A DNA stretch of 64,000 bases from a virus. The notes beneath the pieces were generated by a model that saw nothing but the letters and a program-made list of their open reading frames with translations, did not search any database and was not told where the DNA came from. Position numbers and translations under genes: made by a program. Shown piece by piece: positions 21,381 through 21,405 of the stretch (position 1 is its first letter; each line of letters opens with the position of its first letter). Where the stretch lies: the IMG/VR virus record IMGVR_UViG_3300046170_000524. One strand, 5' to 3'.

Positions 21381-21405
21381 TTCAATTTCTTAATCATATC
21401 CCTCC

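What the first reader, a model, noticed from the sequence alone, without database searches (positions are those of the whole stretch)
21385..21405. Candidate sRNA-controlled regulon: the ncRNA tail is exactly antisense to the shared 5' tag of nine early mRNAs
The linker between the ncRNA closing helix and its terminator contains UCUUAAUCAU (21388-21397). This is the perfect complement of AUGAUUAAGA, the first 10 nt of genes at 22638, 25751, 26492, 27646 (+) and 30360, 31333, 32273, 32528, 33145 (-); pairing extends to 12 nt for 33145. By eye I found this 10-mer only at those nine starts and here. For leaderless mRNAs this covers the whole initiation signal, and a single-stranded seed just before a terminator is typical sRNA architecture. 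Inference: one abundant phage RNA shuts off, or tunes, a battery of tagged early genes, including a nuclease-like gene. I know of no described phage system like this.
Basis: partly seen in the sequence, partly recalled or inferred. Interest (0 to 1): 0.88.

Follow-up and report, generated by a model that had tools for sequence, protein, structure and literature searches.

The report
manA RNA tail mirrors leaderless start-tag
An uncultured marine phage makes a stand-alone folded RNA of the known "manA" family. Its short open tail is the exact mirror of the first ten bases of nine early phage messages that have no leader, so it may switch those genes off, but this is not yet shown.

Summary
UCUUAAUCAU (21388-21397) lies in the open linker between a stand-alone manA-family RNA (Rfam RF01745, 86 bits) and its terminator. 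It is the exact complement of the first 10 nt of nine genes that begin 5-8 nt after sigma70-like -10 boxes, so they are probably leaderless.

For the reading: in 45 related marine phage contigs (22 distinct; manA core median 74% identical) UUCUUAAUCAU is invariant in 21 of 22, while both flanks vary and indels shift it. The antisense ORF is not conserved. The seed opens at 0.2-2.7 kcal/mol and the duplexes are -10.6 to -12.5 kcal/mol. One nested lineage that scrambled the seed keeps no exact tag in the sampled early region.

Against it: the tag is older than the seed and persists (1-3 copies) in relatives without it. Six other manA tail types tested on long contigs do not complement their own gene starts. 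There are only one or two independent evolutionary events. No RNA data could be obtained.

Verdict: antisense control of leaderless early mRNAs is the best single reading (about 0.4). Coincidence with a generic tail function is nearly as likely. The scan had noted manA RNAs in other viruses, but not this pairing.

The parts
21077..21105 (+). Promoter of the manA RNA gene, TTGACA-17-TATAAT (12 of 12 consensus); predicted start near 21112
   Evidence: a sigma70-like promoter stands before 88 of 117 distinct manA genes of this phage group
21120..21162 (+). Leader: hairpin UUGAG-N7-CUCAA (21120-21136) and a boxA-like GAUCUUUAACA (21152-21162)
   Evidence: the likeness to rrn boxA is from my own knowledge of the E. 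coli consensus
21176..21385 (+). manA RNA core (Rfam RF01745), full length
   Evidence: 86.1 bits, E 1.5e-20, model positions 1-192
21386..21397 (+). Tail seed UUUCUUAAUCAU; the last 10 nt are complementary to AUGAUUAAGA
   Evidence: UUCUUAAUCAU is invariant in 21 of 22 distinct sequences; opening energy 0.2-2.7 kcal/mol
21406..21447 (+). Intrinsic terminator of the manA RNA (15-bp stem, T-run)
   Evidence: a terminator is present in all relatives, though its sequence differs
22638..23036 (+). Tagged leaderless gene, 132 aa, mycobacteriophage L5 gp82-like (PF25735)
25751..26461 (+). Tagged leaderless gene, 236 aa, MvaI/BcnI restriction endonuclease family (PF15515)
26492..27232 (+). Tagged leaderless gene, 246 aa, GP88 family (PF17338); first 14 nt invariant in all seed-bearing relatives
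27646..27759 (+). Tagged leaderless gene, 37 aa
30157..30360 (-). Tagged leaderless gene, 67 aa, no family
31133..31333 (-). Tagged leaderless gene, 66 aa, no family
32091..32273 (-). Tagged leaderless gene, 60 aa, no family
32337..32528 (-). Tagged leaderless gene, 63 aa, no family
32939..33145 (-). Tagged leaderless gene, 68 aa; longest match to the tail (12 nt, -12.5 kcal/mol)
25310..25319 (+). Further plus-strand copy of UCUUAAUCAU, over the stop codon of the DUF932 gene (24563-25315)
   Evidence: not a gene start. Kept in many relatives, but largely explained by a Ser codon, a stop codon and common descent

Best explanation
The phage transcribes a stand-alone manA-family RNA of about 335 nt from its strongest early promoter. 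In this clade the open linker between the manA fold and the terminator has become an antisense seed, UUUCUUAAUCAU. As the RNA accumulates, the seed pairs with the extreme 5' end (AUGAUUAAGA, start codon included) of a set of leaderless early mRNAs: nine in this window and five in a near-complete relative. A leaderless mRNA offers the ribosome nothing but its 5'-terminal AUG, so a 10-12 bp duplex there should block initiation. It may also change 5'-end-dependent decay. Shown here: the sequences, their positions, strict conservation of the seed, predicted accessibility and duplex energy. Inferred: that the RNAs meet and pair, and the direction of the effect.
For: Exact complementarity to nine gene starts; 12 copies in the window against 0.64 expected. 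In a 93%-complete relative of 125.7 kb, the 10-mer occurs only at five leaderless starts and in the manA tail. The seed UUCUUAAUCAU is invariant in 21 of 22 distinct sequences from 45 contigs. By contrast, the manA core is a median 74% identical, every one of the 12 positions after the seed takes 3-4 different bases, the 5-nt spacer before it has 6 forms, and 3-5 nt indels shift the seed in 4 sequences. Conservation stops exactly at the base that would pair with mRNA position +1. Seed opening costs 0.2-2.7 kcal/mol, and opening the mRNA 5' end costs 0.1-1.0 kcal/mol for eight of the nine mRNAs. Duplexes are -10.6 to -12.5 kcal/mol, against a mean of -4.7 for untagged starts and -5.7 if codon 3 is AAA. 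The tag uses AAG in 9 of 9 cases although AAA outnumbers AAG 911 to 305. On the tree, the seed-bearing clade (SH-aLRT 98) contains one nested lineage (L017-L020) whose seed is scrambled. There the three orthologous tagged genes read AAA, AAA and ATC, and no exact tag remains in the locus. Seed-bearing genomes carry 5-9 exact tags, relatives without the seed 0-3. The antisense ORF is not conserved. The RNA has a 12-of-12 consensus promoter and its own terminator.
Against: The exact tag stands at leaderless starts in relatives whose manA tail has no seed (three each in the L026 and L022 genomes; one each in the L017 genome, G011 and G013), so it predates the seed and does not need it. Nucleotide-level constraint on the GP88-like gene's 5' end runs to 14 nt and holds in seed-less lineages too, which points to a translation or initiation constraint rather than pairing. 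This manA group has 87 distinct tail 17-mers. Several other types are as conserved as this one, and in the six such contigs tested (57-195 kb, most of them partial genomes) they do not complement their own real gene starts. There are only one or two independent evolutionary events. In the GP88 gene tree all seed-less rows form one clade, which suggests recombination rather than repeated co-change. U-rich tails and A-rich starts give 8-13 nt chance matches across unrelated genomes. No seed variant with a matching tag variant exists in IMG/VR. After opening costs the net duplex is only about -7 to -8 kcal/mol. No RNA-level data were available.
Confidence: 0.42

Rival explanations
1. Coincidence. 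The tail is a U- and pyrimidine-rich, G-poor linker kept for a generic purpose shared by all manA genes of this phage group, for example protein binding, insulating the fold from the terminator, or a role in the multimer. The tag is an optimum for leaderless initiation or promoter escape. The two happen to be complementary in one clade and never interact.
For: Other tail types (for example UUUUCUCUCAUCCC in L041, L042 and L060) are also conserved yet match no real gene start in their own genomes. The tag is older than the seed and is conserved without it. The cross-genome matrix shows chance matches of 10 nt or more in about 4% of tail-genome pairs. Two other chance copies of the 10-mer lie in this window.
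Against: A chance match would have to hit the one multi-copy tag, which I estimate at 0.1-1% per lineage. The edge of conservation falls exactly at the base opposite mRNA +1. Indels move the seed without changing it. The lineage that lost the seed also lost its exact tags.
Confidence: 0.36
2. A DNA-level site. TGATTAAGA is an operator for a DNA-binding protein that sits over +2 to +10 of the tagged promoters. The copies in the manA tail and at the end of the DUF932 gene are further binding sites, for which orientation does not matter.
For: In the near-complete relative the 9-mer occurs only at the five starts, in the manA tail and at the end of the DUF932 gene. Synonymous positions of the tag are fixed.
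Against: The site is not palindromic and no candidate regulator was identified. All three non-start copies in the window lie antisense to local transcription, which an operator does not require. The DUF932 copy is largely explained by a Ser codon, a stop codon and descent.
Confidence: 0.08
3. Pairing within the same molecule. The tail UUUCUUAAU pairs with AUUGAGAAA near the 5' end of the same transcript, closing or protecting the RNA the way the leader and trailer of an rRNA precursor pair.
For: Minimum-energy folds of the window, L011, L013 and L014 draw this 9-bp helix, and L005 a 7-bp version.
Against: The leader hairpin AUUGAGAA...CUCAA is conserved across lineages with entirely different tails, so it does not co-vary with the seed. 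The helix is weak, competes with the leader hairpin and is absent from several relatives. It leaves the conserved CAU unexplained.
Confidence: 0.06
4. 21397 is the start of a real minus-strand gene (21167-21397, 76 aa) carrying the same tag.
For: An ORF of 76 aa is open in this window.
Against: The frame closes after 4-5 codons in L004, L005, L007, L011, L014 and L029, and after 23-55 codons in other relatives. No promoter lies upstream on the minus strand, only the terminator. The region scores as a full manA RNA on the plus strand.
Confidence: 0.01

Closest known systems
manA RNA motif (Rfam RF01745; Weinberg et al. 2010, PMC2864571; cryo-EM preprint 10.64898/2026.07.01.735769)
   Same: Full-length covariance-model match (86 bits). 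Found in marine phages. One copy per genome in the eight relatives tested.
   Different: The family is filed as cis-regulatory in 5' UTRs and has no known function; the preprint shows decamers and a 60-mer cage in vitro. Here it is a stand-alone gene with its own consensus promoter, an rrn-like leader and a terminator, followed at once by the next gene's own promoter. It also carries a clade-specific conserved tail that neither the Rfam model nor those papers describe.
Multi-target base-pairing sRNAs with a conserved open seed and an intrinsic terminator (RybB, OmrA/B, GcvB), and phage or prophage antisense RNAs (lambda OOP, P22 sar, DicF); from my own knowledge
   Same: Own transcription unit; a short conserved unpaired seed next to a terminator hairpin; complementarity to the initiation regions of several mRNAs that share a motif.
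   Different: The seed is appended to a large, independently folded RNA of about 210 nt. The targets would be the 5'-terminal 10 nt of leaderless mRNAs. A 2022 review lists sRNA control of leaderless translation as unknown (PMC9031893). No chaperone or host is known.
T4 RegA translational repressor and RegB endoribonuclease (own knowledge)
   Same: Works alike: one phage factor turns down a battery of early mRNAs through a short shared motif at their initiation sites.
   Different: Those factors are proteins that recognise the sense RNA. Here the proposed effector is an RNA acting by base pairing. Not a member of either family.

Membership tests
manA RNA (RF01745) | Covariance-model score above the curated gathering score over the full model | tested here: met
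   86.1 bits against 55.2, model 1-192; relatives score 65-89 bits
manA RNA (RF01745) | Cis-regulatory position in the 5' UTR of the gene it controls (the Rfam type) | tested here: not met
   It has its own terminator (21406-21447), followed by a separate TTGACA-17-CATACT promoter (21450-21478) that places the next gene's ATG 6 nt after its -10 box
manA RNA (RF01745) | Assembly into closed multimers (decamer, 60-mer) | not testable with these tools
   Known only from cryo-EM of other members
Trans-acting base-pairing sRNA | Independent transcription unit with promoter and intrinsic terminator | tested here: met
   Sequence level only:
Trans-acting base-pairing sRNA | Conserved, accessible single-stranded seed | tested here: met
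   Invariant 11-mer in 21 of 22 distinct sequences; opening energy 0.2-2.7 kcal/mol
Trans-acting base-pairing sRNA | Complementarity to the initiation region of target mRNAs beyond chance | tested here: met
   Nine starts; 12 copies against 0.64 expected; -10.6 to -12.5 kcal/mol against -4.7 for controls
Trans-acting base-pairing sRNA | Co-variation of seed and targets across relatives | tested here: inconclusive
   Seed loss in L017-L020 coincides with loss of exact tags. But there are only 1-2 independent events, gene trees conflict, the tag persists without the seed, and no compensatory variant was found
Trans-acting base-pairing sRNA | Expression of the RNA and regulation of the targets | not testable with these tools
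Leaderless mRNAs | Transcription start at or within a few nt of the start codon | tested here: inconclusive
   Promoter geometry fits: 17 of 48 strong promoter-like sites have an ORF ATG 5-8 nt after the -10 box, 11 of them at 6 nt, and there are no SD motifs. No start-site mapping.

The most novel reading that the evidence does not exclude
A cage-forming manA RNA has gained a 3' antisense tail that captures the 5' ends of a battery of leaderless early phage mRNAs. This would be the first function assigned to any manA RNA and the first RNA-based control of leaderless translation. The multimer might display 10-60 tails at once, acting as a multivalent trap for mRNA ends.
Probability: 0.3. Interest if true: 0.85.

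Novelty: new variant of a known kind. Interest (0 to 1): 0.62.

Why it matters
manA RNAs have been known since 2010 and were recently shown to build protein-free cages, yet none has a function. This clade offers a concrete, cheaply testable hypothesis, because the proposed interaction is a 10-12 nt duplex that can be broken and restored by paired single-base changes. No case of a small RNA regulating a leaderless mRNA has been reported (review PMC9031893). A leaderless mRNA exposes only its 5' AUG, so blocking it with an antisense RNA is a particularly direct way to shut it off. Independently of that, this phage group is unusual. Dozens of single-gene early units each have a consensus sigma70-type promoter placed so that transcription should start at the ATG, and no gene has a Shine-Dalgarno motif.

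Tried and rejected
- Antisense ORF 21167-21397 as a gene: rejected, because the frame is not conserved.
- Tail-leader helix as the reason the seed is conserved: rejected as a general cause, because the leader hairpin is the same whatever the tail.
- Generalising 'tail complements own gene starts' to other manA lineages: failed. In G001, G009, G010, G011, G012 and G013 the few matches of 10 nt or more lie at ORFs of 5-27 codons, not at genes.
- Search for seed variants that would give a compensatory test (C-to-D at the position pairing with G9; any 4 nt before AAUCAU): only unrelated DNA was found. L224 has GUAUUAAUCAU, but its contig is only 2 kb.
- Tag identity as a by-product of duplicated promoter modules: rejected. 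The 5-8 nt between the -10 box and the ATG, and the spacers, differ among the nine promoters while the tag does not.
- Tail as a mimic of the 16S 3' end: CCCUCC-type motifs recur in many tails and terminator loops, but about half of the seed-bearing lineages lack them, so this was not pursued.
- GP88 AAG/AAA split as proof of co-evolution: downgraded, because in the GP88 gene tree all AAA rows form one clade.
- Closest cultured phages: none near. There is no megablast hit, and terminase and DnaE-like polymerase are 34% identical or less to Bacillus, Clostridium and Streptomyces phages. The host remains unknown.

Full report
WHAT IS THERE. The window is part of a large, AT-rich (34% GC), uncultured phage genome. 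It encodes a terminase, an rIIB-like protein, a ClpB-like ATPase, a DnaE-like polymerase, ribonucleotide reductase and a ligase. No cultured phage is close. The ncRNA of the finding is a full-length member of the Rfam manA family (RF01745; 21176-21385, 86.1 bits, gathering score 55.2). It is a stand-alone gene with these parts:
- a perfect TTGACA-17-TATAAT promoter (21077-21105);
- a leader with a small hairpin (21120-21136) and a boxA-like GAUCUUUAACA (21152-21162);
- the manA fold;
- a 20-nt linker;
- a 15-bp terminator (21406-21447).
The next gene's own promoter begins 3 nt after the T-run.

THE OBSERVATION. UCUUAAUCAU occupies 21388-21397 in the linker. ATGATTAAGA occurs 12 times in the window, against 0.64 expected and at most 3 in 100 shuffles.

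Each of the nine tagged ORFs begins 5-8 nt after a promoter-like -10 hexamer. Window-wide, 17 of 48 strong promoter-like sites have an ORF ATG at that distance, 11 of them at exactly 6 nt. No gene has a Shine-Dalgarno motif. The mRNAs are therefore very probably leaderless, although no start site has been mapped.

Three tagged genes belong to known families: L5 gp82-like, an MvaI/BcnI-type endonuclease, and GP88. The tag is constrained at the nucleotide level. Lys is AAG in 9 of 9 tags although AAA outnumbers AAG 911 to 305, and Ile is ATT in 9 of 9 where ATT makes up 50% of Ile codons. The promoter spacers and the bases between the -10 box and the ATG differ among the nine genes, so the identity is not left over from a recent duplication.

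RELATIVES. A neighbouring 192-aa protein retrieved 30 IMG/VR loci. A pattern for the 3' strand of manA retrieved 44 viral and 120 metagenomic stretches, all marine. Forty-five loci, giving 22 distinct sequences, carry the seed. Across these sequences:
- the manA cores are a median 74% identical;
- UUCUUAAUCAU is invariant in 21 of 22, the exception ending in C;
- every one of the 12 following positions takes 3-4 different bases;
- the 5-nt spacer before the U-run has six forms;
- 3-5 nt insertions displace the seed in four sequences.
Conservation thus ends exactly opposite mRNA position +1.

The seed costs 0.2-2.7 kcal/mol to open and the mRNA 5' ends 0.1-1.0 kcal/mol, except 22638 at 4.3. Duplexes are -10.6 to -12.5 kcal/mol, against a mean of -4.7 for other leaderless starts. 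Changing G9 to A (AAA) drops the duplex to -5.7.

EVOLUTIONARY TEST. On a tree of the neighbouring gene, the seed-bearing loci form one clade (SH-aLRT 98). L017-L020 are nested inside it, and their tail reads UUUAUUUAUUAUUAUUCAU. In that lineage the three orthologous tagged genes read ATGATTAAAA, ATGATTAAAA and ATGATCAAGA. Their sister lineages keep the exact tag.

The GP88-like gene is ATGATTAAGACAAC in 20 of 20 seed-bearing loci and ATGATTAAAACAAC in 8 of 8 seed-less loci that keep an ATGATT start. In a 93%-complete seed-bearing genome the 10-mer occurs only at five leaderless starts and in the tail.

These results favour a link but are weaker than they look, for five reasons:
- In the GP88 gene tree all AAA rows form a single clade (support 80). 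That split may be one event plus recombination.
- The 5' constraint on GP88 runs to 14 nt and holds equally in seed-less lineages.
- The exact tag stands at one to three leaderless starts in genomes without the seed, including a relative only 50% identical in protein. The tag is therefore older than the seed and independent of it.
- The family has 87 distinct tail 17-mers, mostly a U-run followed by pyrimidines. Several are as conserved as this one. In the six other contigs assembled here (57-195 kb, most of them partial genomes) they complement no real gene start.
- No seed variant exists in IMG/VR that would allow a true compensatory test.

ALTERNATIVES.
- Within-molecule helix. A helix between the tail and AUUGAGAAA near the transcript's 5' end is drawn in some folds. 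But that leader hairpin is conserved whatever the tail, so it does not explain the seed.
- DNA-level operator. This cannot be excluded: in the near-complete relative the 9-mer TGATTAAGA occurs only at the starts, in the tail and at the end of the DUF932 gene. However, the site is asymmetric and no regulator is in view. The DUF932 copy is largely a Ser codon plus a stop codon inherited by descent.
- Pure coincidence. The cross-genome matrix shows that U-rich tails and A-rich starts give matches of 10 nt or more in about 4% of unrelated pairs. Hitting the one multi-copy tag I estimate at 0.1-1% per lineage. That is small, but not negligible for a finding selected from a very large scan.

MECHANISM AND ODDS. 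The best single reading (0.42) is that, in this clade, the manA RNA tail acts as an antisense seed on the 5' ends of tagged leaderless early mRNAs. It would occlude the only initiation signal they have. It comes from the strongest promoter of the region, with an rRNA-like leader that suits an abundant untranslated RNA. Coincidence with a generic tail function is close behind (0.36). The direction of any effect (repression, stabilisation or capture) is inferred, not shown.

COMPARISON WITH WHAT IS KNOWN. Membership of the manA family is met by score, but the family's cis-regulatory placement is not. The proposed mode of action resembles seed-plus-terminator sRNAs and, functionally, T4 RegA and RegB. 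sRNA control of leaderless mRNAs is listed as unknown in a 2022 review. manA RNAs have no assigned function, although a 2026 preprint shows that they form decamers and a 60-mer cage. Earlier notes of this scan describe the same RNA gene, the start tag and manA RNAs in other viruses, but none reports this tail-tag pairing.

Noticed in passing
window 21112-21175: The manA leader has a hairpin (UUGAG-N7-CUCAA) followed by GAUCUUUAACA, which closely resembles the rrn boxA antitermination signal. Of 117 distinct manA upstream regions in this phage group, 83 have the hairpin, 84 the boxA-like motif and 88 a sigma70-like promoter.
   Followed up: partly
window, whole; loci L001-L030: Early genes are single-gene units, each with a consensus sigma70-type promoter whose -10 box ends 5-8 nt before the ATG (17 of 48 strong sites in the window; 10-26 per 20-kb locus in relatives). 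No gene has a Shine-Dalgarno motif. The host is unknown.
   Followed up: partly
window 25310-25319; L013, L017, L026 and others: A second plus-strand copy of UCUUAAUCA(U/C) lies on or just after the stop codon of the DUF932 gene in most relatives, including ones that lack the manA-tail seed. It may be a Ser codon plus a stop codon kept by descent, or a second anti-tag element.
   Followed up: partly
window 27465-27610: A TTGACT-16-CATAAT promoter is followed by no ORF. Instead there is an RNA of about 100 nt with a tRNA-like T-arm (GAGGGUUCAAUUCCCUC) and a T-run. ARAGORN and Rfam call nothing here.
   Followed up: no
L053, L041, L048, L007, L011, L014 tails and terminator loops; window 21400-21405: Many manA tails or their terminator loops display CCUCC-type runs. 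The L053 loop reads CACCUCCUUU, like the 3' end of 16S rRNA. This hints at an anti-Shine-Dalgarno-like display in a phage group whose own genes have no SD.
   Followed up: partly
L023:5212-5223: A relative whose manA tail lacks the seed carries the exact 12-mer TTTCTTAATCAT in a 24-nt spacer between two plus-strand genes. It is not a minus-strand gene start (9-codon frame).
   Followed up: partly
L021, L022, L024 just after manA; L023:7520-7635: In three relatives a different conserved GC-rich element of about 90 nt follows manA in place of the tail. In L023 an extra structured insert of about 115 nt sits in the leader.
   Followed up: no
window 30439-30456, 31540-31557, 32620-32637: Three identical GCCCGAGTTGGATCGGGC hairpins, each with the same AACTTTTTAG tail, lie between the minus-strand early genes. 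They are part of the repeated modules noted by other readers.
   Followed up: no
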